A stretch of 64,000 nt of DNA from Eledone cirrhosa (Eukaryota): positions 253,084,001 through 253,148,000 of the forward strand of contig OZ024743.1 in assembly GCA_964016885.1 (NCBI GenBank). Reading direction: 5' to 3'. The notes under the pieces are model-generated. The model was not told where the DNA came from. It did not search any database and worked only from the letters and a program-made list of their open reading frames with translations. Shown one piece after another: positions 1-64,000 of this stretch. A program made the translations under genes and the position numbers. Each line of letters starts with the position of its first letter. Positions within the stretch are counted from its first letter, which is position 1.

Positions 1-3000
1 ATAAGAGTGTTTAAATATCGAACCTAAACAGTTCGAATAACGGTGAAATGGAGACTAGAGCGTCATGTGACAGACTCTCACCCAACAGGTGCTCCCTGGC
101 TCAGCAGCAGGAACCTGGCTGTCAACCAAATACTGCTGGTGTCGGAGGAAGAAGAAGGAAGGAAAGGGACCAGAACCAACTGGACGAAAGAATTGAATAG
201 AACTGTTATGCAATGTTACCTGAAAAGTAACCCCAAGGAGAGGGGCTATAGGAGACGGATGCAGAACATCTGGAACGAGATTGGTCTATTTAAATGAGAT
301 GAACAAAAATTGGCCGGGCAGGCTCGGGTAATAAGAACTAATGGGTGGATGAGCGAGCAGGAACTGGAGGAACTGAGCAGAGAGATTAGCTTGGAGATGG
401 AGGGTGGAGTATGCCAGGCAAACGAGCCAGTGGGAAATGAATTTGAAGAGGTCGAGAGAACGGAGGAACCACCCGAAGCAGACAATGATCTGAATAGTGA
501 GATAAATAATACCTGGAACAGAGATACGGCCACTGAGGAGATGAATGCTGACGGGCTAGGACAAGATTTGGTTGATATCCTAAACTTAGTGGTAGATGAA
601 ATGAACAATGATAGTGGGAGACCTATGAACCTAAGATTTGTAGACAGGAAAAAGTTAAAAGAAACAATAGCTAAGGTAAACAAAGTCATCCCATACCTTG
701 AGGCGAGGACCCTTCACCAGTGCAACAATATCCTCAAAGCAACAGCAAATACGGTGAGGAAACTACTTGGTATAAAAGCGAGAGGAAACAACAGACGAGA
801 AAGAGCAGAGCCTTGGTGGAAGAAACGACTGAGTGGTCAAATCAGGGAAATGAGAAATGACATTGGAAAGCTTGAGTCACTACTGAATGGGATACTAAAA
901 AACATAAGCACTAAAAATAGACTGGTAATAAAGTACAAAACTAGGAGGAAAAAGCTAAATATTATCATAGAGGAACTGAAGCAACGCATTGTAGCAAATA
1001 GTGCAAAAATCAGGCGATACGAGAACAGTCAGTCAGTATAAACAGAACCGCTTGTTCGACAACAACCAGAAGATGCTGTTTGGACAGCTTGAGGGGAAAG
1101 AAAGAGGCAACGACTTGATCCCTGAGGCGGAACAAACTAAAACATTCTGGAGAGGAATATGGGTGCAGGATGTTAGACATAATGACCAGGCAGGGTGGAT
1201 TGAGACAGTAGAGAGGGAGATCGGTGAGCAGGCACACCAACAAACTGATTTGAGTATCACAGTTGAAACTCTTAAGGGGCAGGCCAAAAAACTAACCAAC
1301 TGGAAATCACCAGGCCAAGATGGTGTGAAGGGGTATTGGATTAAACATTTAACATCCCTCCACCCGAAACTGACAACCATGTTCAATGACTGCTTGATGT
1401 CAGGTGAGGTACCAGAGTGGTTGACAAAAGGTACCACAGTTCTGATAATGAAAGACCGAATCAAGGGCAGTGATGTTACCAACTATAGACCTATCACATG
1501 TCTGTCCGTAATGTCGAAAATTCTGACGAGCATTGTGTCTGAGGAAATCTACCATCACCTCCACACAAACAACTTATTACCGGACGAACAGAAAGGATGC
1601 CGAAAGAAGTCACGTGGTACAAAGGACCAGTTACTTATTGATAATATGGTAATGGGGAATTGCAGGAGGAGACACACTGATCTTGCCATGGGATGGATAG
1701 ACTACAGAAAGGCATTTGACATGGTGCCTCATTCTTGGATCACCAAAAGCCTGGAGATCTCCAAGGTGGCGGATAACATCAGACAGTTGCTGGGCAGGAG
1801 TATTAGGTCCTGGGAAACAGAGTTGACATCAACTGGAGAATCCTTGGGAAGCGTGAAGATCAAGAGAGGTATCGTCCTGGTAGATAGCCTGTCCCCTCTA
1901 TTTGTTGTCCTTGCCCTGATGCCCCTGACCATTATGCTGTGAAAAGTGAGAGCAGGATACAAGTTGGGAAAGGGAGAGCTTACCATCAATCACCTCCTCG
2001 TCATGGACGATCTTAAGCTCTTCGGGAAGAGTGAGAAGGAGTTGGATGTGCTTGTTGACACTGTCCGTATTTTCGGCAGTGATATATGTATGCAGTTTGG
2101 TATTAGTAAGTGTGGAGTCATTATGATGAGGAGGGGTAGGTTGAGCAGAAGTAACGGAATCCAGATACCAACAGGTGAGATGATAAAGGAAATTGACTCT
2201 GAGGAAGGATACAAGTATTTGGGCGTTCTGGAAGCTGATGGCATAACGAAAAAAAATATGAAGGAATTGTTAAGAACTGAATACATTCGGAGAATAAGGA
2301 GCGTATTGAAGTCACATCTGAACAGCAGAAATGCCATAAGCGCAGTAAATTCCCGAGCTGTGTCTATTATTAGGTACAGTGCGGGAATTCTGAGATGGAA
2401 TGTTGCTGAACAAAAAGAAATGGATAGGAAGACTAGGAAGCTATTGACTATCTACAACATGTTCCACAAGAGGAGTGATGTCGATAGACTCTACCTAAGG
2501 AGATCTGAGGGGGGAAGAGGTCTTATCAGCATAGAGGACTGTGTTCAGATGGAGAAAAACAACCTACACAAATACGTGACTGATAGTAAGGAGCCAATGC
2601 TCAGAACTGTACTGAAGGAGGGGACAATAGGCCAGGGGATGTCCAAGGAGGAAATAACATCAAGGAGAAAGAGCAGCCTTCAGGGAGAATCCCTTCATAG
2701 TACCTTCTTTGAGAAAACTGAATTTAGAGATCCACAGACATGGAACTGGTTGAGAAGATGAGACCTCAAAACGTCTACAGAAGGAATGTTAATGGCTGCG
2801 CAGGAGGAGGCCCTCAAAACGAAGTGGTTGGAACACCATATTTACAAGGAAGAGGCTAGCCCACTGTGCAGGATCTGTGGAGAGAGAGAAGAGACTGTGG
2901 CTCACATTGTATCCGAGTGTAAACACCTAGCCCAGACCCACTATAAGGGCTGGAGACATGATGTGATGGGCAGGGTGATCCACTGGCACCTGTGCAAAGT

Positions 3001-3512
3001 AAACAATTTACCACATTCTGAGAAATGGTATGAGCATAAGCCAGGGGCGGTGATGGAGAACGATCAGGTGAAGGTGCTGTGGGATTTTAGGATACAGACG
3101 GACAAAAAACTGGAACACAATAGACCTGACGTGGTGGTTGTGGACAAAGGAAAAATATCGTGTCTGATTGTGGATGTGGCCTGCCCATTCGACACGAGAG
3201 TGCAAGAGAAGGAGAGGGAGAAAATTAACCGATACCAAGACTTAAAGTGGGAGGTAAAAAGGATTTGGAACTGCCATGAAGTCAAAGTGATCCCGATTGT
3301 CATAGGCGCACTGGGGACTATCTCCAAAAGTTTCCAGGGATGGTTAAAGAAAATCGGCCCCTTCACGCTTTTTGGAACGCTTCAAATGGCATGCTTGCAG
3401 GGAACAGCAAGAACCCTCCGATACGTCCTGAATATCTGAGGCTGCAGGTAGTGGCTTGATATTCATACCTACGGACTTTCCAGTTAACTAACATCAATGA
3501 CTGAGGTTCAAG

Positions 3513-9162: not shown

Positions 9163-9390
9163 TGAGTCATGTATTTTTTTTCAGAGAAACAAATTTTGTT
9201 TGATAATTATAAAAAGTTTAAATTTTGGGCTCAAGGCCCCAATATTTTTGAGTGTCCTTTTCAGAAATCACTGTATGTGCAGTCATATACAGTTAACAAT
9301 AAAAATTTTCCATAATTGGCAATTTTAAACAACTGAAAATAACAAACTTTTGCGGAGCTCACGATGATACGATTTACTGCGTAGGTCGCC

Positions 9391-9447
<57 letters not shown>
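9391..9447. repeat. (AAT)n microsatellite between the Tx1 5' end and Dong copy 2
   Basis: Perfect AAT array read directly. Confidence 0.98.
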
Positions 9448-9449
<2 letters not shown>

Positions 9450-11587
9450 CTGCTTGGTGTCGGGTGAGGTGCCAGAGTGGTTGACAAAAGGTACCACAGT
9501 TCTGATAATGAAAGACCGAATCAAGGGTAATGATGTTGTCAGCTGTAGACCTATCACATGTCTGTCCGTAATGTGGAAACTGTTGACGAGCATTGTGTCT
9601 GAGGAAATCTACCATCACCTCCACACAAACAACTTGTTACCGCACGAACAGAAAGGATGCCGAAAGAAGTCACGTGGTACAAAGGACCAGTTACTTATTG
9701 ATAAGATGGCAATGGGGAATTGCAGGAGGAGACACACTGGTCTTGCCATGGGATGGATAGACTACAGAAAGGCATTTGACATGGTGCCTCATTCTTGGAT
9801 CACCAAAAGCCTGGAGATCTTCAGGGTGGCAGATAACATCAGACAGTTGCTGGGCAGCAGTATTGGGTCCTGGGAGACAGAGTTGACATCAACTGGAGTA
9901 TCCTTGGGAAGCGTGAAGATCAAGAGAGGTATCTTCCAGGGAGATAGCCTGTCCCCTCTGTTGTTTGTCCTTGCCCTGATGCCCTTGACCATTATGCTGC
10001 GAAAAGTGAGAGCAGGATACAAGTTGGGAAAGGGAGAGCTTACCATAAATCACCTCCTCTTCATGGACGATCTTAAGCTCTTCGGGAAAAGTGAGAAGGA
10101 GTTGGATGTGCTTGTTGACACTGTCCGTATTTTCAGCAGTGATATATGTATGCAGTTTGGTATTAGTAAATGTGGAGTCATTGTGATGAGGAGGGGTAGG
10201 TTGAGCAGAAGTAACGGGATCCAGATACCAACAGGTGAGATGATAACAGAAATTGACTCTGAGGAAGGATACAAGTATTTGGGCGTTCTGGAAGCTGATG
10301 GCATAAAGAACAAAAAAATGAATGAATTGTTAAGAACTGAATACATTCGCAGAGTAAGGAGCGTATTGAAGCCACATCTGAACAGCAGAAATGCCATAAG
10401 CGCAGTAAATTCCCGAGCTGTGTCTATTATTAGGTACAGTGCGGGAATTCTGAGATGGAATGTTGCTGAACAAAAAGAAATGGATAGGAAGACTAGGAAG
10501 CTATTGACTATCTACAACATGTTCCACAAGAGGAGTGATGTCGATAGACTCTACCTAAGGAGATCTGAGGGTGGAAGAGGTCTTATCAGCATAGAGGACT
10601 GTGTTCAGATGGAGAAAAACAACCTATACAAATACGTGACCTATAGTAAGGAGCCAATGCTCAGAACTGTACTGAAGGAGGGGACAGTAGGCCAGGGGAT
10701 GTCCAAGGAGGAAATATCATCAAGGAGGAAGAGCAGCCTTAAGGGAAAATCCCTTCATAGTACCTTCTTTGAGAAAACTGAATTTAGAGATCCACAGACA
10801 TGGAACTGGTTGAGAAGAGGAGACCTCAAAAAGGCTACAGAAGGAATGCTAATGGCTGCGCAGGAGCAGGCCCTCAAAACGAAATGGTTGAAGCACCATA
10901 TTTACAAGGAGGAGGCTAACCCACTGTGCAGGATCTGTGGAGAGAGAGATAGGAGACTGTGGCTCACATTGTCTCGGAGTGTAAACACCTAGCCCAGACC
11001 CACTATAAGGGCTGGAGACACGATGTGATGGGCAGGGTGATCCACTGGCACCTGTGCAAAGTAAACAATTTACCACATTCTGAGAAATGGTATGAGCATA
11101 GGCCAGAGGTGGTGATGGAGAACAATCAGGTGAAGGTGCTCTGGGATTTTAGGATACAGACGGACAAAAAACTGGAACACAATAGACCTGAGCTGGTGGT
11201 TGTGGACAAAGAAAAAAGATCGTGTCTGATTGTGGATGTGGCCTGCCCTTTCGACACGAGAGTGCAAGCGAAGGAGAGGGAGAAAATTAACCGATACCAG
11301 GACCTAAAGTGGGAGGTGAAAAGGATTTGGAACTGCCATGAAGTCAAAGTGATCCCGATTGTCATAGGCGCACTGGGGACTATCTCCAAAAGTTTCCAGG
11401 GGTGGTTAAAGAAAATCGGCCCCTTCACGCTTTTTGGAACGCTTCAAAAGGCATGCCTGCTTGGAACAGCAAGAATCCTCCGATACGTCCTGAATATCTG
11501 AGGCTGCAGGTAGTGGCTTGATATTCATTCCAACGGACTTTCCAGTTAACCAACATCAATGACTGAGATTCAAGGAATAACAACAAC

Positions 11588-12974: not shown

Positions 12975-15900
12975 TACAGCGTGATAGTGCAACGCTAAAA
13001 TCACTGGGGGTGATCAAATCACCAGAGGTGATGAAATCACCGGTGGTTATGTAACCATACATTCACCAATCCTCGATAAGAGTGTTTCAATGTCGAACCT
13101 AAACAGTTCGAATAACGGTGAAGTGGAGACTGGAATGTCATGTGACAGACACTCACCCAGCAGGTGCTCCCTGGCTCAGCAGCAGGGACCTGGCTGTCAA
13201 CCAAATACTGCTGGTGTCGGAGGAAGAAGAAGGAAGGGGACCAGAACCAACTGGAGGAAAGAATTGAATAGAACTGTTATGCAATGTTACCTGAAGAGTA
13301 ACCCCAAGGAAAAAAGGCTATAGGAAACGGATGCATAACATCTGGAACGAGAGTGGTCTATTTAAATTAGATGAACAAATATTGGCCGGGCAGGCTCGGG
13401 TGATAGGAACTAATGGGTGGATAAGCGAGCTGGAACTGGAGGAACTGAGCAGAGAGATTAGATTGGAAATGGAGAGTGGAGTATGCCAGGCAAACGAGCC
13501 AGTGGGAAATGAAGGTGAAGAGGTTGAGAGAACGGAGGAACCATCCGTAGAAGACAATGATATGAATGCTGAAATAAATAAATTTGTTTTTCTATTTTAG
13601 GCACAAGGCCAGCAAATACCCAGTACATTACTGGTACTTTATTTTTATCGACCCCGTAAGGATGAAAGGCAAAGATAACCTCGGCCGGATTTGAACTCAG
13701 ATCGATAAGGGACGTAACTATGCTGGAAAGCATGTCCAACCCTCTACCGATACTGCCAATTCACCGAAATAAATAATACCTGGAACAAAGATACGGCCAT
13801 TGAGGAGATGAATGCTGACGGGCTAGGACAAGATTTAGTTGATATCCTAAACTTAGTGGTAGATGAAATGAACAATGATAGTGGGAAACCTATGAACCTA
13901 AGATTTGTAGACAGGATAAAGTTAAAAGAAAAAACAGATAAGGTAAACAAAGTCATCCCATACCTTGAGGCGAGGAGCCTTCTCCAGTGCAACAATATCC
14001 TCAAAGCAACAGCAAATGCGGTGAGGAAATTACTTGGCACAAACGCGAAAGGAAACAACAAACGAGAAAGATCAGACTCTTGGTGGAAGAAACGACTGAA
14101 TGGTCAAATCAGGGAAATGAGAAATGACATTGGGAAGCTTGAGTCCCTACTGAATGGGACACTAAAAAACATAGACACTAAAAATAGACTGGAAATAAAG
14201 TACAAAAGTAGGAGGAAAAAGCTAAAGATTATCATAGACGAACTGAAGCAACGCATTGTAGCAAAAAGTGCAAAAATTAGGCGATGCGAGAGCAGAGTCA
14301 GCCAGTATAGACAGAAGCGCATGTTCGACAACGACCAGAAGATGTTGTTTGGACAGCTTGAAGGGGAAGAAAGAGGCAACGACTTGATCCCTCAGGCGGA
14401 AGAAACTAAGACATTCTGGAGAGAAATATGGGAGCAAGATGTTTAAACATAATGACCAGGCAGTGTGGATTGAGACAGTACAAAAGGAGATTATTGAACA
14501 GGCACACCAACAAACTGATTTGAGTATCACAGTTGAAACTCTTAAGGGGCAGGCCAAAAAACTAACTAACTGGAACTCACCAGGCCCAGATGGTGTGCAG
14601 GGGTATTGGGTTAAAAATATAACATCTCTCCACCCGAAACAGACAACCATGTTCAATGACTGCTTGATGACAGGTGAGGTACCACAGTGGTTGACAAAAG
14701 GTACCACAGTTCTGATAATGAAAGACCGAATCAAGGGTAATGATGTTACCAACTATAGACCTATCACATGTCTGTCCGTAATGTGGAAACTGTTCGCAAG
14801 CATTGTGTCTGAAGAAATCTACCATCACCTCCACACAAACAACTTGTTTCCGGACGAACAGAAAGGATGCCGAAAGAAGTCCCGTGGTACAAAGGACTAG
14901 TTACTGATTGATAAGATGGTAATGAGGAATTGCAAGAGGAGACACACTGGTCTTGCCATGGGATGGATAGACTACAAAAAGGCATTTGACATGGTGCCTC
15001 ATTCTTGGATCACCAAAAGCCTAGAGATCTTCAACGTTGCAGATAACATCAGACAGTTGTTGAGCAAAAGTATGAAGTCCTGAAAAACAGAGTTAACATC
15101 AGCTGGAGAATCCTTGGACGGCGTGAAGATCAAGAGAGGTATCTTCCTGAGAGATAGTCTGTCCCCTCTGCTGTTTGTCCTTGCCCTGATTCCCCTGACC
15201 ATTATACTGCGAAAAGTGAGAGCAGGATACAAGTTGGGAAAGGTAGAGTTTACCATCAATCACCTCCTATTCATGGACGATCTTAAGCTCTTCGGGAAGA
15301 GTGAGAAGGAGTTGGATGTACTTGTTGACACTGTCCGTATTTTCAACAATGATATATGTATGCAATTTGGTATTAGTAAGTGTGGAGTCCTTGTGATGAA
15401 GAGGGGTAAATTGAGCAGAAGTCACGGAATCCAGGTACCAACAGTTGAGATGATAAAGGAAATTGACAGTGAAGAAGGATACAAGTATCTGGGTAATCTG
15501 GAGGCTGATGACATCAAGAACAAAAAAAATGAACGAATTGATAAGATCTGAATACATTCGGAGAGTAAGGAGCGTATTAAAGTCACATCGGAACAGTAGG
15601 AATGCCATAAGTGCAGTAAAATCTTGAGTTGTGTCTATTATTAGGTACAGTGCGGGAAATCTGAGATGGAATGTTGCTGAACAAAAAGAAATGGATAGGA
15701 AGACTAGGAAGCTATTGACTATCTACCATATATTCCACAAGAGGAGTGATGTCGATAAACTCTACTTAAGGAGATCTGAAGGTGGAAGAGGTCTTATCAG
15801 CATAGAGGACTGTGTTCAGATGGAGAAAAACAACCTACACAAATACGTGACCGATAGTAAGGAGCTCAGAATTGTATTGAAAGAGAGGACAATAGACCAG

Positions 15901-16799
15901 CGTACGTCCAAGGAGGAAATAACAAGGAGAAAGAGCAGCCTTCATGAAAAATCCCTTCATAGTACCTTCTTTGAGAAAACGGAATTCAGAGATCCACAGA
16001 CATGGAACTGGTTGAGAAGAGGAGACCTTAAAAAGGCTACAGAAGGATTGCTAATGACTGCGCAAGAGCAGGCCCTCAAAACGAAGTGGCTGAAACACCA
16101 TATTTACAAGGAGGAGTTTAGCCCACTGTGCAGGGTCTGTGGAGAGAGAGAGAGGAGACTGTGGCTCACATTTTATCCGACTGTAAACACCTAGTACAGA
16201 CTCACTATAAAGGCTGGAGACATGATGTGATGGGCAGGGTAATCCACTGGCACCTAAGCAAAGTAAACAATTTACCACATTCTTAGAAGTGGTATGAGCA
16301 TAAGCCAGTGTCGGTGATAGAAAACGATCAGGTGAAGGTGCTTTGGGATTTTAGGATACAGACGGACAAGAAACTGGAACACAATAGACCTGACCTGGTG
16401 GTTTTGGACAAGGAAAAAAGATCGTACCTGATTGTGGATGTGGCCTGCCCATTCGACCCGAGAATGCAAGAGGAGAGGGAGAAAAATAACCGATACCAGG
16501 ACTTAAAGTGGGAGGTAAAAAGCATTTGGAACTGCCATGAAGTCATAGTCGTCCCGATTGTCATAGGCGCACTAGGTACTATCTCAAAAGTTTTCAGGGA
16601 TGGTCAAAGAAAATTGGCCCCGCCCCGCTTTTTGGAACACTTTAAAAGGCATGCTTACTGGGAACAGCAAGAACCCTCCGATACGTCCTGAATATCTGAG
16701 GCTGCAGGTAGTGGCTTGATATTAATTTCAACAAACTTTCCAGTTAACTAACATCAATGACTGAGACTCAAAGAATAATAATAATAATAATAATAATAA

Positions 16800-24928: not shown

Positions 24929-25468
24929 TAAAGGTTAATTACATACCATACAAGCAATAACAAATCCAAGACATTGAAGAATGAAAGGTAATAATAGACG
25001 ATAAAAGTAAAAATAAAAATAAGGGGTGCTATCAGTCACAGTTGGGCGGGGTGCTGTCAACATATAGTTACATACAAGCATACACATGGATAAGAGAACA
25101 GACAAGAGTAGACACATGGATAAGAGAACAGACAAGAGTAGATAAGATAGATGGGATTAGGTAAGAGTAGGTAAAAAATAGGTAAAAAATAGGTGAAAAA
25201 CAGACTTATAATATATATAAATAAGAAAATATAAAGAAATACAAAGAAATACATAACAAACTTACATATAAAATATAGGGTAAGGAATGAGATAAAATAA
25301 TATAAAATTAAAATTAAAAATTATATACATAGAACATAATATAATATAATCGTAAAATAAGATAAAATAAGGTAAACTAAAATCAAATAACATAGACTAA
25401 ATTAAAATAATATAATATAAGATATAATTAAATGTATAATTAAATGTAATTAAATGTAATTAAATAAA

Positions 25469-25517
<49 letters not shown>

Positions 25518-27090
25518 AAATTAAATAAATAAATAAAATTAAAATTTAAATTTTAAAATTTAAATTTAAATTTAAATAAATAAATAAATAAATGGAAGCA
25601 AGTAAGTAAATAAATAAAATTAGATAACATGAAATGAAATAAAATAAAATAAAATAAAATGAAATAAAGTAAATTGAGATAAGATATATATTTTTTTAGA
25701 ATATATCTCTTGAATATATCAGGGGCCCACGAAGGCACTAAGTGTCACAGTTATGTGTATCACTTGACCATTTTTTTAAAATATATTTCTTGAAAACATC
25801 AGGGGCCCACGAAGGCACTAAGTGTCACAGTCACCAGTATCACTTGACGATTGCAAGGCAATGGAGGCGTCCCAGGTTGGGCAGTCTCGAAAGTTCACTC
25901 GAAAGTCATGGGTGTGCATTCACACAGTTGAGCGGTGGGGTAATCACAAACCGGTTCACACCCGGGCAGGAGTCCAATGGTCAGAGAGAGGTGCATCGAA
26001 GGAGGTAGAAGAATTCACGTGCATTAGCAAGCTAGGTGCAGGCGGGTTAAAGCAAGCAGACACAGTTGTAGCGCATACAAAAGATATATAAAAAGACAGA
26101 AGATATATAAAAAATAGCTTCAAGAGCCATTAAGTCACCGCATTGGGACATCACAAGATTGTACACATCAATATGTTCAGCACGTATATGCACGTATACA
26201 CACCACATGCATATGCAGAGACGGTATACATATATATATATATATTTTTTTTTATATATACAGACACATACAACCACCTACACCCATACACATATAAATG
26301 TATACACGGACACACACGCACACACACACAGCGTAGGACACCCGGGTCAAAGCTGATATTAAACACCGAAATACCACATTAGACCAGACCCACCACCACA
26401 GGTAATACATTCAAAATAAATACATACGATGAGATGTAGTAAAATAAAGTTGAAATCCCACGGAGATATTCATGTCCACACGTGCCATTGACCGATTCGA
26501 GTGTACACAGACCGTTAGTAACTACGGAGGGCTATCGGGGCCAAAACGTTACTTTCGGGATCATAACAACGACCGTCAATATATGGAAGGCCGATCGTGC
26601 TAGAAAGACTACAACCCCGGGTAAGAGCTCCCAGAGGTCAGCCTGTAGATCTTGAACCACAGAATATGAGGGCAACACGTACATGCGCCACGTATCCACT
26701 GCTTACGGCGGGATGGCACGGGTCCGCCCACAGTTACAGGCTAAATTTCTACTAGTGCAGCCTAAATCGCAGTACACGCTTTACATAAATACATTACATC
26801 ACAACTCATGCGCATACAGAGGTACAGATCAACAAGATATACGTCAGGATAGGTCCACCAATGCACCAATGGTGGGTAGGCCAGCGTGGATGGGTTACAT
26901 CCACTGTGCCAAACAGGGGTGCTTATTAACATACACTCCCCTGCACACCCCAATATCCAGATCAATATCCTCCCACAGGCATACGTATACATTCACCGAC
27001 TCGTATACATAGACGACCAACAATAGGAGACAGTTACACACAGTCAGAGACAGTTACACAAGACAGCCCAACTGGAGGAATAAGGAAGTG

Positions 27091-27636
27091 CTAGCTAACA
27101 GGTTTAAAGTAGAAGAAAGAGCTTAATATTCGGTGGGGGCAAGAGGAAAAAATTTCAGACTTTCTATTTAGTAGAGGGCATTTAGCAAATATAATAGAGT
27201 GGGATTCGGCAAGGCACAGGTTACATACTCTACTATGAGGAGTATATGGATGGGATTTAGCAACCTGCCGCCAAGTAAGTGTGTAACGTGTTCGTGCATT
27301 TTTTAAATTATGGACGTACGCTGCCAAGGAGGTGGTGTTCCTCAGTTTATTATGTCTAAAAGTGCATTGATGAGAGTTAAACCTGGTCTTAAAGGGGGTG
27401 GAGGTTGATCCTATATAGGTCTTAGTGGACGCCGTAGTTACCACATCACACGCATAAACTATGTTTCTAACAAGGCAGAAACCATTCAGGGGGCAGCCTG
27501 AAGCCCTTCTACAGTTACAACCTCTGGTGATGCTATTCTCAGAAAGATCACCACCAGTGTTTCTGCCCACTCTATCCACTACCGTGTTTTCCCCTAGGCT
27601 TAGGTTGTCCAGGCCTTCCTTTATTTTCTTATTATT
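27091..27636 (-). pseudogene. PLE GIY-YIG endonuclease C-terminus
   Basis: CNCRRASGCPLNGFC..NIVY..YIGST..FKTRFNSH..CNLCLAE..LLNRKSE. Confidence 0.88.
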
Positions 27637-28047
27637 AGTGAATGCACACCCATGACTTTCGAGTGAACTTTCGAGACTGCCCAACCTGGGACGCCTCCAT
27701 TGCCTTGCAATGGTCAAGTGATACTGGTGACTGTGACACTTAGTGCCTTCGTGGGCCCCTGATGTTTTCAAGAAATATATTTTAAAAAAATGGTCAAGTG
27801 ATACACATAACTGTGACACTTAGAGCCTTCGTGGGCCCCTGATATATTCAAGAGATATATTCTAAAAAAATATATATCTTATCTCAATTTACTTTATTTC
27901 ATTTTATTTTATTTTATTTTATTTCATTTCATGTTATCTAATTTTATTTATTTACTTACTTGACACCATTTATTTATTTATTTATTTATTTAAATTTAAA
28001 TTTAAATTTTAAAATTTAAATTTAAATTTTATTTATTTATTTAATTT

Positions 28048-28084
<37 letters not shown>

Positions 28085-28645
28085 TTTATTTAATTACATT
28101 TAATTACATTTAATTATACATTTAATTATATCTTATATTATATTATTTTAATTTAGTCTATGTTATTTGATTTTAGTTTACCTTATTTTATCTTATTTTA
28201 CGATTATATTATATTATGTTCTATGTATATAATTTTTAATTTTTAATTTTAATTTTATATTATTTTATCTCATTCCTTACCCTATATTTTATATGTAAGT
28301 TTGTTATGTATTTCTTTGTATTTCTTTATATTTTCTTATTTATATATATTATAAGTCTGTTTTTCACCTATTTTTTACCTATTTTTTACCTACTCTTACC
28401 TAATCCCATCTATCTTATCTACTCTTGTCTGTTCTCTTATCCATGTGTCTACTCTTGTCTGTTCTCTTATCCATGTGTATGCTTGTATGTAACTATATGT
28501 TGACAGCACCCCGCCCAACTGTGACTGATAGCACCCCTTATTTTTATTTTTACTTTTATTTTTATTCTTATCCTTTATCGTCTATTATTACCTTTCATTC
28601 TTCAATGTCTTGGATTTGTTATTGCTTGTATGGTATGTAATTAAC

Positions 28646-32815: not shown

Positions 32816-32848
32816 AGAATATTTTCGAAACAGCGAGGGAGTCTGAAA

Positions 32849-33059
32849 TTAGAAATATAAGCTATCGCCGTATTTTGACTAAAGAACTTATTTAGCCTGA
32901 TAGTGGGATTAAGAACCCTCGGAGAAATAGAAAAAGATGAGTATTGACGTGCATGTACGTCAATACTCATCTTTTATCATTTCTCCGAGGGTTCTTAACC
33001 CTATTATCAGGATAAATAATTTCTTTAGTCAAAATACGACGATAGCTTATATTTCTAAT
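32849..33059. repeat. Palindrome of about 210 bp with no loop, in TA-rich flanks
   Basis: Centre GAGTATTGACGTGCA|TGTACGTCAATACTC; arms pair out to TTAGAAATATAAGC/GCTTATATTTCTAA. Confidence 0.9.
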
Positions 33060-33331
33060 ATATATACATATATATATCTCAAAGGTATATATTGAGTTAG
33101 GAACTGAAAATAGTCTATTGCAACAAAATAACTCTAAGAAAGAGATATTTCCGAGCCGTATAGAATATAAAAGAATAACGAACACAGACATAAGCATATA
33201 TGTGTTCAAATCGTAAGGGACCAGATTCGCTAAGGTGAAAAGAATACTAACTATAGACAATTGGGTTCGCTTGTCTCAATTTAAGAAAGAATCAAGAAAA
33301 TAAATACAAACCGGAATTGTGGTAACTACCG

Positions 33332-33406
33332 ATCACCCAGACAACTTGTTGTTTCGCAATGTTAATTGTGAATATAATTACCAATTCAAGCTAATCAGTG
33401 GGTGAT
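33332..33406 (-). ncRNA. Type I HHR motif with a core substitution (CTGATTA)
   Basis: ATCACCCA CTGATTA GC..long stem II..GC GAAA CAAC-aa-GTTG TC TGGGTGAT; G8->U is probably inactivating. Confidence 0.7.
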
Positions 33407-34437
33407 GAATTAGTATCCTAGACACTTCTAAGTATGCTAAGAAACTGAATAGTGTGCTATATATAAACATTTTAGCGCACATGGCATCCTAGAGCGTCTC
33501 ACAAACTTACACCACTAAAAATAGCAGCCAGGTTTATTCGACATTTGAAATAGCTCAACAAATTAACGGAGCCGAATATATCAAAAGTATATATTGAGTT
33601 AGGAACTCAAAATAGTCTCTTACAACAAAATAGCTCTAAGAAAGAGATATTTCCGAGCCGTATATTATAATAGAATATAAAAGAAAAACGAACACAGACA
33701 TATACATATATGTGTTCAAATCGAAAGGGACCAGATTCTCTAAGGTGAAAAGAATACTAACTATAGACAATCGGGTTTTGTCTGGGTGATCGGTAGTTGC
33801 CACAATTCCGGTTTGTATTTATTTTCTTGATTTTTTCTTAAATTGAGACAAGCAACACACCCAATTGTCTATAGTTATTATTCTTTTCACCTTAGTGAAT
33901 CTGGTCCCTTTCGATTTGAACACATATATGTATATATCTGTGTTCGTTTTTGTTTTATATTCAATTATAATATACGGCTCGGAAATATCTCTTTCTTAGA
34001 GCTATTTTGTTGTAAGAGACTATTTTGAGTTCCTAACTCAATATATACTTTTGATATATTCGGCTCCGTTAATTTGTTGAGCTATTTCAAATGTCGAATA
34101 AACCTGGCTGCTATTTTTAGTAGTGTAAGTTTGTGAAACGCACTAGGATGCCATGTGCGCTAAAATGTTTATATATAGCGCACTATTCAGTTTTTTTATA
34201 TACTTAGAAGTGTCTAGGATACTAATCCATCACTTCAATTGGTAATTATATTCCCAATTAACATTGCGAAACGACAAATTATCTGGGTGATCGGTAGCTA
34301 CCACAATTCCGGTTTGTATTTAATTTCTTGATTTTTTTCATTAAGACAAGCAACAAACCCAATTGTCTATAGTTAGTATTCTTTTCACCTTAGAAAATCT
34401 GGTCCCTTACGATTTGAACACATATATGTATATGCCT

Positions 34438-34660
34438 TGTGAAGGCGTGTGGCTGAGTGGTTAGAGAATTGGATTCGCAATCGTAAGGTTGTGAGTTCGA
34501 TTCCTGGACCAGGTGATGCGTTATGTCCTTGAGCAAGACACTTTATTTCACATTGCTCTTTCTACCTGGAGTTCCGACCGATAGATAGTATTAGCAATTG
34601 GAAAGACCAACGGAAACATTGTTCCCTCGGTCCGATTTGACGAAAGTCGATCGTTCCTTT
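34438..34660 (+). mobile_element. tRNA-derived SINE family B
   Basis: TGGCTGAGTGG (A box), GAGTTCGATTCC (B box), GTCCTTGAGCAAGACACTT central motif; flanked by ATGTATATG. Confidence 0.8.
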
Positions 34661-34700
34661 ATGTATATGTCTGTGTTCGTTTTTCTTTTATATTCTATTA

Positions 34701-34753
<53 letters not shown>

Positions 34754-35129: not shown

Positions 35130-35671
35130 ATAATAATAAATTTGAAGACTAAAATCCAAAGAGAGCTCGATAAGGATAAATATATATCAAATATATACGA
35201 ACCGTAGAGCAAATATTTATTAAGATAACAGATTAAAGTTTAAGCAAAAATCGCTGCTTTCACCCTTAACGGGATCTTCTGAAACTAACAATGTCAATCT
35301 ATGAACGCAGAAGTGAATATTTCATAAAACGTTGCAACCGGAGGAAGGTGGGAAGACGATACTTTGGTTCGTGGAAACGTTCCTTTCACAAAAGATACAG
35401 GTAATATATACTTACCTATACAAGTAAGTAATGGTATAAACATAACATATTCTTAGCTACCTCATCAAGACGTAAAATATCCACGTATGTTTTGCGAAAG
35501 GAACGTTACCACGAACCTATGTATCGTGTTCCTGTCTTCCTCCGGTTGCAACGTTTTTTGAAATATTCTCTTCTGCGTTCACAGATTGACTTTGTTAGTT
35601 TCAGAAGATCCCGTTAATGGTGAAAGCACCGATTCTTTGCTTAAACTTTAATCTGTTATTTTAATAAATAA

Positions 35672-40894: not shown

Positions 40895-41137
40895 GCCAGG
40901 GAACATCTTCATGAACCAAAGTATCGTCTTCCTGTTTTCCTTCGGTTGCAACGTTTTTCGAAATATTTACTTCTTCGTTCACAGAATTATTTTTTTTAGT
41001 ATCAGAAGATCCCGTTAAGGGTGAAAGCAGCAATTATTTGCTTAAACTTTAATCTGTTATGTTAATATATATTTGCTCTAGGGTTCTTATATATTTGATA
41101 CATATTTATCCTTATCGAGCCCTCTTTTTATTATTAT

Positions 41138-41141
<4 letters not shown>
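40895..41141 (+). mobile_element. Family X copy
   Basis: Matches 35500-35670 and the reverse complement of 35126-35380. Confidence 0.75.
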
Positions 41142-41196
<55 letters not shown>

Positions 41197-51154: not shown

Positions 51155-52215
51155 CGGGTGTGTATGATTGTGTATAGAAGATTATATTAATAAAAGGAAT
51201 ACCAACTTTGTCTGATTTACCTGTTTTATTTACAATCTTTTAAAATTATAATGGTATTATAATGAAATAGTATGGTAGAATATTAAATGTTAAGTGTTAA
51301 TTGAACAAGTACTTTCATGCTTTCGCAATCTTCAGGTTCATATTCTGAGGTGACAGTCAAGTTTGCAATTTTCAACTGTAATGAAATGGGTAAATTTTGT
51401 GCCTTATATACAGTGAAAAGCGGCTGCAGAATGCTAAGTTTTGCAAACTGTATTTCGACCAATCGGTGTGTAGTTTCACTGAATTACTAAATCTGATTGG
51501 TTTAGGTGTCACGGTTGGTTGAGCATGTCTAACGACTTCTATTTGACCCTATCCAAAGCATCAATTGTTTTGCTATTTTTAGAAATGTTGAAAATAGCAT
51601 ATTCTAGGGTTTTTATAAAAAATCTTCAGTAATCATCAACATCAACAACACTTTTATTATTATTGTTGTTGTTTTTGTTAGTGGCGGTAGTCGAAATGGT
51701 CGTAGGCGTAGTCATAGTAGGAGTAATACCCCCAAGCATTATTATTGTTCATTTAGCTTGGGTTGGATTTTATCAATAACATTCTTTTCTTTAAATTGTC
51801 TCTTGATTTCACTTGGGCTCTGTAGTTTGTAGAATGGAAATATTATAAATAATTTCTGACCACATGTTGCTAGATGGTTACTCAGGGGTATCTGACGGAC
51901 ATATGGGTCTCGGGTCTGCTGTCGGTGCACCCGTGCACGTTCCGATAATGCATTTCCAGTTTGACCGACATATAGTTCTTCACAATTCGGGCATTTTATG
52001 CAGTAAATTAGATTTTTGCTTTTGCAGTTCATATTTGCATTTGGGAATATTTTTCCAGTTTTTGTGGTTTTTGTGTTCATATATTGACCGGTGTGTATGG
52101 ATTGACATATGCCACATCGACTATCATTGCATTTAGATATAGTGAATGATTGGTCTCTGTTGTTAAGGTCAAACTTTGCCTTTGTTAATGCTCCATTTAT
52201 ATTATCATGTTTCAC
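51155..52215 (-). mobile_element. 5'-truncated Penelope-like element (GIY-YIG + 3' UTR + HHR)
   Basis: CNDSRCGIC..NCKSKNLIYCIKCPNCEELYVGQTGNALSERARVH..QPKLN; HHR at 51302; (TA)n at the 3' end. Confidence 0.88.
51302..51340 (-). ncRNA. Minimal type I hammerhead ribozyme
   Basis: TGAAC CTGAAGA T-TGC-gaaa-GCA-T GAAA GTAC TT GTTCA; palindromic stem III AGTACT. Confidence 0.88.
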
Positions 52216-52675
52216 TGTGACCCATCTTCTCTCTCCTTCTACATATCTATTTCGTTGCTCTACTCTTCCCCCTTTTCTTTCTCTCCCTTTCTCCCTCTCA
52301 CTTTCACTCAACCTCTCTCTTCCAGCCACCTCATTGTTTCCCTAGCCTGACCCTCTAGCAGTCCTTTTCTCACTTACATTTGCCCACACGTTTTAAAACT
52401 TACGTTCAGCACCGTTATTGACTTGGATTTTCTTTCTTGAAGGTGCTCGCCATTTCTCCAGTTTGTTGCTTTTTCGCTGTTTTTCTCTCTTCTTCCCCTT
52501 TCCTTTCTATTTTCCTTTCCTCTCTCCTCCGTTTTCCCAATAACTTACCTAGTTATTGAACGCTCTGGGGTAGATAAATTGTCTTTAAAGCGTTGAAATA
52601 TCCGAGACCCCCTAGTAGACAACTGATGAGGAATACTCCCCCTCTCTGTTCCTGCTTTCTTCTTAATGTTTAGCC

Positions 52676-53245
<570 letters not shown>

Positions 53246-53504
53246 CAATAATAATGAGTTCAAATATCAGGCGATCATTTACAATGAAATAGCTCGAAGA
53301 AAAATTATTTCTGAGCCGTGTAATATAGGTTAACACAAAATTAATATATTTGATAAACACAAATATCCTCATATTTATGTTTGTATTGTAAATGACCAAG
53401 TTAGCTAGATAGAAATATACTAATAATAATATTACAGTTTGCCTATCATGACTTAAGATAATACATCATAAATCAACAAAAGCAAATTGTATTGGCAATG
53501 GCCG

Positions 53505-53638
53505 TAGTGCTTGGACAAATTTAAATTTCAAAATCAAACCTGTTCCGTAGACAGGTTTAAACCTTAAAATCCAAATATGTTTCGAATAATGAAAAAGTGG
53601 AAGAAAACACCGCATTTTGATCTCCTCAGCAAGCACTA
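53505..53638 (-). ncRNA. Mirror copy of the extended stem III HHR
   Basis: Reverse complement of 53900-54033. Confidence 0.75.
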
Positions 53639-53899
53639 TAAAAATTGGTATGTTCCACTTCAAAATATTTAGGAAGACTGTTTAGCGCACGAGGTAACCT
53701 CATGCGGTTATCCAGTGTCTAGCTAGCCTCATACTCATGCTGCTAGAAATAACAGCCGTTTGTATTAGCCCCATACAAACGGCTGTTATTTCTAGCAGCA
53801 TAAGTATGAGGCTAGCTAGACACTGGATAACCGCATGAGGTTACTTCGTGCGCTAAACAGTCTTCCTAAATATTTTGAAGTGGAACATACCAATTTTTA

Positions 53900-54033
53900 T
53901 AGTGCTTGCTGAGGAGATCAAAATGCGGTATTTTCTTCCACTTTTTCATTATTCGAAACATATTTGGATTTTAAGGTTTAAACCTGTCTACGGAACAGGT
54001 TTGATTTTGAAATTTAAATTTGTCCAAGCACTA
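53900..54033 (+). ncRNA. Type I HHR with a long extended stem III
   Basis: TAGTGCTTG CTGAGGA GA..TC GAAA CATATTTGGATTTTAAGGTTTAAACCTGT-ctacgga-ACAGGTTTGATTTTGAAATTTAAATTTG TC CAAGCACTA; stem II is weak. Confidence 0.75.
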
Positions 54034-54208
54034 CGGCCATTGCCAATACAATTTGTTTTTGTTGATTTATGATGTATTATCTTAAGTCATGATAGGCAAA
54101 CTGTAATATTATTATTAGTATATTTCTATCTAGCTAAGTTGGTCATTTACAATACAAACATAAATATGAGGATATTTGTGATTATCAAATATATTAATTT
54201 TGTGTTAA

Positions 54209-54284
<76 letters not shown>

Positions 54285-56299: not shown

Positions 56300-58947
56300 C
56301 ACCTTTCTCTCCTAATTCTGCTCCTTCCACTCCTCCCTCCACTTCACCACCTCTATCTCCACCACCCACGTCCACTTCTTAGACATCTCCGTCGCCTTCG
56401 ACCCCTCCCACCACTCGCTCGTCACCTCCGCCTTCTTCAAACACACCGACTCCCACTCTTACCTCGACTTCACCTCTTCCCACCCCACACACACTAAACA
56501 CTCTATTCCCTCCTCCCAACTCCTCAGGATCCGCCGCTTCTGTAGCCGAGATGCCGACTTTGAGTCCCAGGCCCTTTCCCTAGTCAGCCATTTCATCCGC
56601 AGAGGTTACCCCCCCCCCACCCCCCCATCCTCTTGTCCACACCGCTCTCACCCGCGCCCGTGCTGTCTACCACTCCACCACCCTCACCCCACGCCACCGC
56701 ACACCCACCCACCGTCGCCCCTTCCCCATCACCTACCACCCCTCCACCTTACCCCTCCACCGCACCATCCTCCGCCACTTCCGACGCCTCCAGTCCGACC
56801 CCTCCACCTCCCACATCTTCCCAGCTCCACCACTCCCCTCCTTCAAACGCGCACGCAATCTCCACACCTTTCTCGTCCACAGCTCCCTACCCCTCAACCC
56901 GATCTCTTCCCCCCCCCAGTTCCTTTCCCTATTCTAGGCCCCGCTGCAACACATGTCCCCACATCACCAACACCACCACCTTCCAGGGTCCCAACGGCCA
57001 CTCTCTCTCTGTCCGGCATGCCTTCCGCTGCACCTCCTCCAACCTAGTCTACGGACTGGACGTCGCCTGGCGGAAAGATTTACTGAGCACCTGCGGGATA
57101 TTCGTCTCGGTGGTAGTTACCCCATCGCCCGCCACTTTGGTGCCCCTGGAAATTCCGCACACCATCTGACAGTCTGTGGCCTACTCCAATGCCACGGAAC
57201 ACCCGCCAATCTCCTAAGAGTCGAACAATGAACCATCTTCATCTTACAGACCCACACTCCCCCCGGCCTGAACTCACCACTCTTATTCCTTTAGCCTTCG
57301 AGCGCCCCCCTCCCCCCACACATATCCCCCACTAACACCACTAACACACCCCTCCTTTTCACCGCCCACCCCACAACTAACAATAGTAACACCTCCACCT
57401 CCACCCCACATCCGACCATTCTTCCCCAACTAACATACTAACATCCCTCCCTTCTTCTCCCCCCCTCCTTATCACACGCACACACCCACCGGTACATATA
57501 TACACGCGCTCACACTAAACACACACCCTACTACCACCACTAACCCTCACCCCCACACATTTACCCCACCACTCCGCAACTAACATCACTAACACCCCCT
57601 GACCCCAAGCACACGAACACACACACCCACTTACACCACCCACCCTATACGCAACTAACATCACTAACACCCCCCAACCCTACGCACACGTAAACACACA
57701 CCCTCTTACAGCCCCCACTCTACACACCCTACCACCACTGACCCCCACTCACACCCGCATTCAACCCTTTCTCCACCTCTTGTATACTAACACCCACTAA
57801 CACCCCCTTCACCACACACACACACCAGTACACTACACTCCCTCCATCGGCCCCCACAACCTTCTCTCCCCGCTCCACCCACACCCTTTCTCAAACACTC
57901 ACTCATCCCACTAACACCCCTACTAATACACACACACCCCCTCCTCACTCCAACTTTCACACCTACCCATCCTCTCCCCTGTCCACCGCACACACTGACA
58001 CACCTTCACTTACCATTCTACCCTACTGTTGCTATGCCCTCTGACCACCTCCCCGCACACACAGACACACAACACACCTTCACTTACCATTCTACCCTAC
58101 TGCTGCTATGCCCTCTGACCACCTCCCCACACACACAGACACACAACACTCCCCCTGCCTTGACCCTCTGAGCACTTCCTGATGCGCGCGCACCCCACAT
58201 CTCCTCTCTTCCGACCAATCTCTTCACGGATTACACATATGTGAACCTTGATCCCGAGAATCCACCGCATCCAAGGATTTTACTCAGCATTCCACCACAT
58301 CTTTTTACGGAATTACCTTTATGACTCACTCCACACACACACACACCAAAAAAAAAATGTTTTTCCAACACGCCACCTACATCCACAACACGCATAAACA
58401 CCACACACACACGTGCGTACCACCACATATTTACACATTCAGCCTCCGGAATCCTATCCGCCCACCCCTCTATCCACACACGCACACACACTCCGACCTA
58501 CACCCCACCACACACACCTCTTCCAGAACATGCAACCCCGTGGTTCCCCCAACCCTTGCTTTCACACACACACACGTACACCTACACACACACACCACCT
58601 TCAGCCCTCCCCGCTCGGACATCCCGTCTCCCTCTCCCCACTCCACCCGCCACCACCCCTACACGCCCCACACCCTCTATCCACCTGTTTTACCCCATTT
58701 TAATTTTATTTTGATCATGCCTTTATTTTTAATTTCATTTGCACCGTTTCCTCTCACCCCTTTTTGCTATATGTCTCTCCACCACTCCCCTACACACCCT
58801 TTGAACTCTCTTCCCACACACTTTTCACCTGAAGAAGGGCTTATGCCCGAAACGTCGTTCCCCACCACCACCCCACTCTCAAGAGCGTGAAATTAATAAA
58901 CCTTTGTTTGTACTGCCTCTCTGTTTTGTTCCCGTTCAATTTTTCAC

Positions 58948-62028: not shown

Positions 62029-64000
<1,972 letters not shown>

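What the first reader, a model, noticed from the sequence alone, without database searches (positions are those of the whole stretch)
33077..34705. Monomer of about 501 nt whose sense array starts at the ribozyme cleavage site
Seen: the plus-strand array begins at TTG-TC|TGGGTGAT (33778-33790), the GUC site and stem I 3' arm of the HHR folded at 33332-33406; the next site is 501 nt later. The junction to the inverted array shares the microhomology TTGTCT. Inference: the template was a self-cleaved multimeric or circular RNA (retrozyme-like), and RT switched strand at the cleaved 5' end.
Basis: partly seen in the sequence, partly recalled or inferred. Interest (0 to 1): 0.75.

Follow-up and report, generated by a model that had tools for sequence, protein, structure and literature searches.

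The report
Two-armed hammerhead repeat, Penelope-style insertion
This is one damaged copy of an abundant, protein-free repeat of about 500 bases that carries a self-cutting RNA motif; its copies sit back to back with two fixed outer ends, so a Penelope-type jumping gene likely pastes them in from both sides of a DNA break, and this copy begins five bases before the predicted cut rather than at it.

Summary
The layout is real: two head-to-head arms (33074-33777 minus, 33778-34704 plus) of a ~505-nt non-coding unit with a type I hammerhead; the two plus-strand sites lie 501 nt apart. The reading is not supported. The plus arm keeps TTGTC, five bases upstream of the scissile bond; the 6-nt microhomology needs a 3-nt gap seen in no other copy (1 vs 103). 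Of 180 sampled cut sites, 2 start at the cut and 147 read through the ribozyme. Genome-wide, about 1.5% of arms stop at the cut, a weak excess (P 0.006-0.02 against the mean rate, 0.19 against a control site). A strand switch is excluded here because each arm holds sequence that the other lacks. The fixed ends are the 3' ends: u~189 or u~274, beside (TA)n, paired one of each in 94 of 95 insertions, each next to a copy of one predicted hairpin. This is the Penelope footprint on a non-LTR retrozyme. A circular template fits but is unproven; no RNA run and no autonomous partner were found. The scan noted the same architecture before for other families in this genome.

The parts
33074..33777 (-). 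Left arm, about 1.4 units; 5' end at unit position ~u72-77, 3' end at the long ('T', u274) site against (AT)n
33332..33407 (-). Type I hammerhead: stem I CAUCACCCA/UGGGUGAU, core CUGAUUA (G8 changed to U at 33393, predicted inactive), GAAA at 33355-33352, stem III, GUC at 33342-33340
   Evidence: family core
33778..33783 (+). Head-to-head junction; TTGTC kept upstream of the predicted scissile bond (33782/33783); flush overlap with the left arm 1 nt, 6 nt only with a 3-nt gap
33778..34704 (+). Right arm, about 1.4 units; 5' end 5 nt upstream of the cut site, 3' end at the short ('S', u186-189) site against (TA)20
33783..34283 (+). The 501-nt monomer between two stem I 3' arms; 33% G+C; no ATG-led frame of 50 aa or more inside
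34220..34291 (+). Second hammerhead site, broken: 12-nt deletion of the CUGAUGA core after 34232, AUC in place of GUC
33975..34007 (+). Motif CGGCTC..GAGCTATTT directly 3' of the S end site (predicted hairpin); mirror copy at 33660 minus
34061..34087 (+). Second copy of the motif directly 3' of the T end site (predicted hairpin); mirror copy at 33574 minus
34435..34659 (+). Younger SINE-like insertion with a 10-nt target duplication TATGTATATG (34425-34434, 34660-34669); near-full-length copies at 90-97% in other fetched loci
33053..33075 (.). Left (AT)n-rich target flank
34705..34745 (.). Right (TA)20 target flank

Best explanation
The locus is one decayed insertion of a ~505-nt non-coding hammerhead repeat (a non-LTR retrozyme) whose two back-to-back arms were likely made by a Penelope-type reverse transcriptase priming separately from each strand of a cut (TA)n target. 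Shown: two fixed 3' end sites 85 nt apart, one per arm; scattered 5' ends; read-through of the ribozyme site; all passes within one insertion equally alike. Inferred: the enzyme binds the repeated GGCUC/GAGCU hairpin and starts just 5' of it, helped by A-U pairing with the target; the two cDNAs stop at variable points and are joined 3' to 3' with 0-5 nt of microhomology; the template is uncut at the ribozyme when copied, most likely a ligated monomer circle that self-cleavage of a rare two-site copy released earlier. On this reading the ribozyme makes the template but seldom sets a copy's end, and this arm's start near the GUC is chance plus local similarity.
For: 3' ends: 180 of 415 distinct arms at u266-278, 153 at u183-192, 82 elsewhere; in the first 301 arms 186 of 250 such ends abut (AT)4 or more against 8 of 51 other ends. 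296 of 415 arms are head-to-head; of 95 pairs with two canonical ends 94 are S+T, 1 T+T, 0 S+S (P about 1e-27 against free pairing). Both sites precede the same motif, also present in sister families. 5' ends: 2 of 180 anchored sites exact, 147 read through; left-truncated hazard gives 8 observed against 4.5 expected for -6..+1, P 0.09. Junctions: 71 of 148 overlap by 2 nt or more, 21 by 1, 20 blunt, 36 with inserts. Mismatch within an arm 5.6% (72 arms), across arms in register 4.7% and shifted by one unit 4.9% (22 loci, P 0.95), between loci 8.4%; no position differs between first and second pass (best P 0.03 of 255). The genome holds 10,597 first-look GIY-YIG candidates, several in long frames. 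Two internal RT starts, both-strand cleavage at AT-rich DNA and no need for ribozyme cleavage are reported for the Anolis PLE (PMC11167929); inverted 5'-truncated copies, a one-sided tail and (TA)n targets are listed as PLE marks (PMC8557442).
Against: No autonomous element sharing these ends was found in 50 GIY-YIG loci or 30 sister loci. The tail is 85 nt, not the 30-40 nt reported. A circle is not shown: a long homogeneous tandem transcript gives the same identities, and most arms are short (11 of 333 cross two cut sites). The hammerhead shape is not the minimum-energy fold in most intact copies (most lie 2-5 kcal/mol lower in another fold) and Rfam gives only a sub-threshold match (E 0.035). 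A weak excess of ends exactly at the cut (6 of 676 with G/T flank) suggests that some templates were cleaved.
Confidence: 0.8

Rival explanations
1. One reading: RT ran to the self-cleaved 5' end of the RNA and switched strand there, using TTGTCT microhomology.
For: The arm starts within 5 nt of the cut; 6 of 676 T-variant sites with a G/T flank start exactly at the cut, about 1.5% after correcting for A flanks, against 1.6-2.0 expected at the mean rate (P 0.006-0.02); one earlier scan note reports ends at the cut in a sister family (e1-8664355, not tested here).
Against: TTGTC lies upstream of the scissile bond and cannot be templated by a cleaved 3' product; the 3-nt gap needed to take it from the other arm is unique (1 vs 103). 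A control site shows 3 of 454 ends (difference P 0.19). Only 5 of 148 junctions have an arm starting at -6..+2.
Confidence: 0.06
2. Same Penelope-type two-priming insertion, but the template is an uncleaved linear read-through transcript of a tandem source copy; the ribozyme is a passenger or acts at another step and no circle is involved.
For: Ribozyme mutants did not affect insertion by the Anolis PLE in vitro (PMC11167929). Arms are mostly under 1.6 units and the stop rate rises with length. One arm spans about 3 units (L118).
Against: Stem I and stem III change in compensatory fashion between subfamilies and sister families, so the fold is under selection; passes within an insertion are equally alike while loci differ, which needs many homogeneous source arrays, and none long was seen among 415 arms.
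Confidence: 0.3
3. The inverted pairs arise at DNA level (foldback recombination, MITE- or satellite-like amplification) and the hammerhead match is incidental.
For: Rfam match below threshold; no match at E up to 1 in the window's damaged copies.
Against: Fixed unequal outer ends in 94 of 95 pairs, random inner ends, solo 5'-truncated arms (119 of 415) and covarying ribozyme stems.
Confidence: 0.04

Closest known systems
Metazoan non-LTR retrozymes (Cervera and de la Pena 2020, PMC7229834: passages, sections 14 and 17 read; Li, Clavereau and Pollet 2026, bioRxiv 10.64898/2026.07.22.740005: parts 1-3 of 5 read, supplements not seen)
   Same: Non-coding, low-G+C repeat unit with one type I hammerhead per unit, dispersed in high copy number in a genome rich in PLEs; proposed there to be moved by PLEs through a circular RNA.
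   Different: Unit of about 505 nt (above the 170-400 nt of the invertebrate examples, inside the 51-972 nt range of Li et al.); copies are mostly 0.1-1.6 units in head-to-head pairs, not long tandems. The parts I read describe no fixed paired ends or inverted arms. Expression and cleavage are untested here.
Endonuclease-bearing Penelope-like elements and their insertions (Craig et al. 2021, PMC8557442: passages read; Frangieh et al. 2024, PMC11167929: parts 1-2 of 4 read)
   Same: 5' truncation, inverted 5'-truncated copy at the 5' end, tail on one side only, (TA)n targets, hammerhead in the repeat, two internal start sites.
   Different: No RT or GIY-YIG frame; tail of 85 nt instead of 30-40; each start site is followed by a copy of one motif; no autonomous partner identified.
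L1 twin priming (recalled, no call)
   Same: Both target strands prime cDNA and give an inverted 5' part joined with microhomology.
   Different: No poly(A); the second priming site is fixed, not variable; both arms here exceed one unit and overlap in template sequence.
Rfam RAGATH-1 hammerhead RF03152
   Same: Best Rfam match for an intact copy (E 0.035), including a small hairpin 5' of stem I.
   Different: 23.8 bits against a gathering score of 56.3; much longer stem II region.

Membership tests
Non-LTR retrozyme | Type I hammerhead with intact core in the unit | tested here: met
   Family level: C3 141/150, G8 146/157, G12 148/166, A13 159/166, H17 C or A 167/172; stem I mean 6.7 of 7 pairs in 117 instances, own 6.6 vs crossed 4.1 over 11 haplotypes.
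Non-LTR retrozyme | [quoted passage not shown] | tested here: not met
   This locus: G8U in the left arm, core deletion in the right arm, upstream site truncated. Family: 11 of 333 canonical arms cross two sites; their cores were not checked one by one.
Non-LTR retrozyme | Non-coding, small, G+C under 45% | tested here: met
   32-33% G+C; no ATG-led frame of 50 aa inside the unit.
Non-LTR retrozyme | Self-cleavage and accumulation as monomer-length linear and circular RNA | not testable with these tools
   No RNA run was listed.
Penelope-type insertion (works like) | Variable 5' truncation with an adjacent inverted 5'-truncated copy | tested here: met
   296 of 415 arms head-to-head; 5' ends spread over the unit.
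Penelope-type insertion (works like) | Two 3' end sites, tail on one side only | tested here: met
   u183-192 and u266-278; 94 of 95 pairs mixed; tail 85 nt, longer than the 30-40 nt reported.
Penelope-type insertion (works like) | AT-rich or (TA)n target | tested here: met
   186 of 250 canonical ends abut (AT)4 or more, against 8 of 51 others.
Autonomous Penelope-like element | Open frame with RT and GIY-YIG domains | tested here: not met
   No such frame in the unit or locus.
Non-autonomous partner of a named PLE family | Shared 3' end or pLTR with an autonomous element | tested here: inconclusive
   Not found in 50 of 150 scored (10,597 candidate) GIY-YIG loci or 30 of 1,613 sister-motif hits; matches there were nested insertions.

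The most novel reading that the evidence does not exclude
A Penelope enzyme pair starts at two duplicated RNA hairpins on one ligated ~505-nt ribozyme circle and copies it from both strands of a (TA)n break, so every insertion has one long and one short end; a small share of templates (1-2%) is caught cleaved and leaves ends exactly at the GUC. The two hairpins would be a minimal, portable signal for PLE mobilisation in trans, and the locus family a direct sequence record of the retrozyme life cycle.
Probability: 0.45. Interest if true: 0.7.

Novelty: new member of a known kind. Interest (0 to 1): 0.42.

Why it matters
That animal retrozymes are moved by Penelope-like elements through a circular RNA has been proposed from co-occurrence and sequence kinship (PMC7229834; bioRxiv 10.64898/2026.07.22.740005). 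This family shows the Penelope footprint at its insertion ends in numbers (94 of 95 pairs with one long and one short end) and points to a duplicated hairpin as the start signal, which makes the link testable with a purified PLE protein. My five paper searches found no report of this end pairing for retrozymes, but the library is incomplete and supplements were not seen. The striking claim of the finding itself, a start at the cut with a strand switch, does not hold.

Tried and rejected
Rfam scan of 28-40 kb: no ribozyme family at E up to 1. Sequencing-run search: no RNA holder listed; no reads were laid. Pfam PF26215 is not in the library; PF01541 was used. Autonomous partner: blastn, tblastn, motif and hammerhead scans of 50 GIY-YIG loci and 30 sister loci found only nested retrozyme insertions and unrelated neighbours. 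The first 30 loci are biased to long arms and were left out of the hazard test unless also hit by a positional probe; set L061-090 was also left out; 257 of 415 arms entered. The strong depletion of 5' ends at -45..-8 (1 vs 20.7) is partly an artefact of a single reference, since subfamilies differ there; with five references it is about half the mean rate (10 ends in 7-40 nt upstream), so I make no claim on it. A hot spot at -5 was tested genome-wide: 2 independent ends among about 296 estimated sites, plus one internal deletion and 7 point variants, no higher than the control. A shared TTT variant in the two inner passes of this locus suggested a two-unit linear template; across 22 loci the effect is absent. 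Look-ups of earlier findings by sequence and nearby place returned nothing. Of the 100 listed hits, two not otherwise held were not fetched at first; of 454 and 676 exact hits only the first 100 of each are listed.

Full report
What is there. The stretch 33074-34704 is a head-to-head pair of arms of one repeat: a left arm on the minus strand (33777 to 33074) and a right arm on the plus strand (33778 to 34704), 88% alike as one inverted match over 1,274 columns. Both outer ends abut AT runs. A 225-nt SINE-like element with a 10-nt target duplication splits the right arm and has many close copies in other fetched loci. The window lies in a 3.0-Gb genome; earlier scan notes call it an octopus, which I did not test. 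I number the unit from the first base after the GUC (u1) on a 507-nt mapping reference.

The ribozyme. The second site of the plus arm has AUC and lacks 12 nt that hold CUGAUGA. The first site of the plus arm has only TTGTC and the stem I 3' arm. So no site at this locus is predicted to cut, and 501 nt is the length of a damaged monomer; periods in 71 longer arms centre near 506 nt. In the family the core is intact in about 90-96% of reads at each position. Stem I pairs at 6.7 of 7 positions in 117 instances and changes in step between sister families (TCACCCA/TGGGTGA, GTGCTTG/CAAGCAC, GTACTTA/TAAGTAC, ATGTTTA/TAAACAT); stem III varies in step between subfamilies. Against this: Rfam gives only E 0.035, below threshold, and most intact copies prefer another fold by a few kcal/mol.

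Family size and sampling. The unit gave 3,674 first-look candidates, 454 exact hits of a 22-mer and 50 plus 676 exact hits of the two variants of the sequence right after the cut. I held 267 loci for mapping, which gave 415 distinct arms.

Test 1: do copies start at the cut? Of 180 distinct anchored sites, 2 begin exactly at the cut, 9 within 0-6 nt upstream, and 147 read through 60 nt or more. With left truncation for how arms were sampled (257 arms), the exact site has 2 ends against 0.58 expected (P 0.12), and -6..+1 has 8 against 4.5 (P 0.09; rank 106 of 483 windows). Genome-wide, 19 of 676 sites have G or T directly upstream; 6 are true 5' ends and 13 are point variants. Corrected for A flanks this is about 1.5% of arms, 3-4 times the mean per-base rate (P 0.006-0.02 at rates of 0.004-0.005; 0.16 at the highest bin rate). 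A control site gave 3 of 454, not significantly lower (P 0.19). So a small cleaved-template fraction is possible, but most arms pass the site.

Test 2: this junction. The top strand reads ...GGGTT TTGTC TGGGTGAT. The left arm's family form is GGGTT-TGC-TTGTCT (own second copy GGGTT-CGC-TTGTCT). Giving TTGTC to the left arm needs a 3-nt gap that occurs only here (1 against 103). The plain parse is that the right arm starts at 33778, five bases upstream of the scissile bond, which a cleaved 3' product could not template. Ends at -5 are no hot spot (2 independent among about 296), though one of them also joins near the same TTGTCT of the other arm, so local similarity may favour the joint. Short overlaps are the rule at these junctions (92 of 148 overlap by 1 nt or more).

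Test 3: strand switch. The left arm ends at u274, 85 nt beyond the right arm's end, and the right arm is 698 unit bases long where a fold-back of the left arm starting at -5 could give about 280. Neither can be a copy of the other. Across the family the S arm is too long for a fold-back in 52 of 94 pairs, and the 5' offsets of partners equal shuffled pairs.

What is fixed. The 3' ends: 180 arms at u266-278, 153 at u183-192, 82 elsewhere, mostly beside (AT)n. 296 of 415 arms are head-to-head, and 94 of 95 pairs with two canonical ends have one end of each kind (P about 1e-27). Each end site follows a TATA run and precedes CGGCTC..GAGCTATTT, a predicted hairpin. The motif recurs in sister families with different ribozyme stems (1,613 exact hits of one form), one of which sits in this window at 53243-54214 with the same long-short layout and a junction away from its cut sites. 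These are the marks listed for Penelope-like insertions (PMC8557442, passages). The Anolis enzyme cuts both strands at AT-rich DNA, starts at two internal sites that define the tail, and does not need ribozyme cleavage in vitro (PMC11167929).

Circle or multimer. Within one insertion all passes are about equally alike (5.6% mismatch within arms; 4.7% in register and 4.9% shifted across arms, P 0.95) and closer than passes of different loci (8.4%); no position separates first from second pass. That fits one monomer sequence read round a circle. It also fits homogeneous tandem transcripts. No RNA could be examined. 11 of 333 canonical arms cross two cut sites and would be the kind of copy able to release a monomer (inference).

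Mechanism. Shown: architecture, end statistics, conserved fold, read-through. Inferred: two target-primed starts at hairpin-marked sites by a Penelope-type enzyme, 3'-to-3' joining with little microhomology, an uncut template, probably a circle. Not found: the autonomous partner, although the genome is rich in GIY-YIG elements.

Comparison and verdict. It works like a non-autonomous Penelope passenger and fits the non-LTR retrozyme class at family level (PMC7229834; bioRxiv 10.64898/2026.07.22.740005); this locus fails the 'two intact ribozymes' criterion. My reading was fixed before the first look at earlier notes; the scan reports the same architecture for several other families in this genome, which I treat as leads only; one note on ends at the cut in a sister family prompted the genome-wide test. 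Five paper searches did not show the paired-end rule for retrozymes. Verdict: real element, new member of a known kind; the specific claim of a start at the cut with a strand switch is not supported. Interest 0.42.

Noticed in passing
window 53243-54214: Sister-family insertion: head-to-head arms, long end left and short end right in (TA)n, intact hammerhead core CTGAGGA..GAAAC..GTC with a long stem III in both arms, junction near 53770 away from the cut.
   Followed up: partly
window 32848-33059: Palindrome with 106-nt arms, 91% complementary, no spacer, in an AT run directly left of the finding; perhaps another head-to-head insertion.
   Followed up: no
window 35246-35637 and 40900-41196: Another inverted pair (153-nt arms) with related copies 5.4 kb away, flanked by AT runs; the same sequence appears in L313 and L347.
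   Followed up: no
window 25001-28559: Long inverted repeats at 99-100% around a GIY-YIG-like frame at 27091-27819 minus: likely a young Penelope-like insertion.
   Followed up: no
window 51742-52341, 56316-57169, 63147-63938: Further frames that look like pieces of Penelope-like elements; R2/R4-type RT frames at 298-3439, 9385-11501 and 13718-16194 (family labels recalled, not searched).
   Followed up: no
L162:1410-1430 and sister loci: A short AAGTG..ACT hairpin-like stretch 5' of stem I is kept across subfamilies and matches the 5' hairpin of Rfam RAGATH-1; it may be the tertiary partner of loop II.
   Followed up: no
L191 around 1575: An arm that starts exactly at the cut is preceded by repeated short TGGGTGAT-AT-rich pieces, as if RT restarted several times at a template end.
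   Followed up: no
L327, L341: A sister family reads CAGA(A/T)GAG instead of CTGANGAG in the ribozyme core, with stem I intact.
   Followed up: no
L374-L376; L029/L030: Same insertion present two or three times nearby, pointing to segmental duplication or assembly redundancy; counted once where noticed.
   Followed up: partly
L271, L279, L295, L315: A coding PLE family also ends at two sites, with (AT)n, a ~32-nt tail and (TA)n; sister retrozymes are nested in these AT runs.
   Followed up: partly
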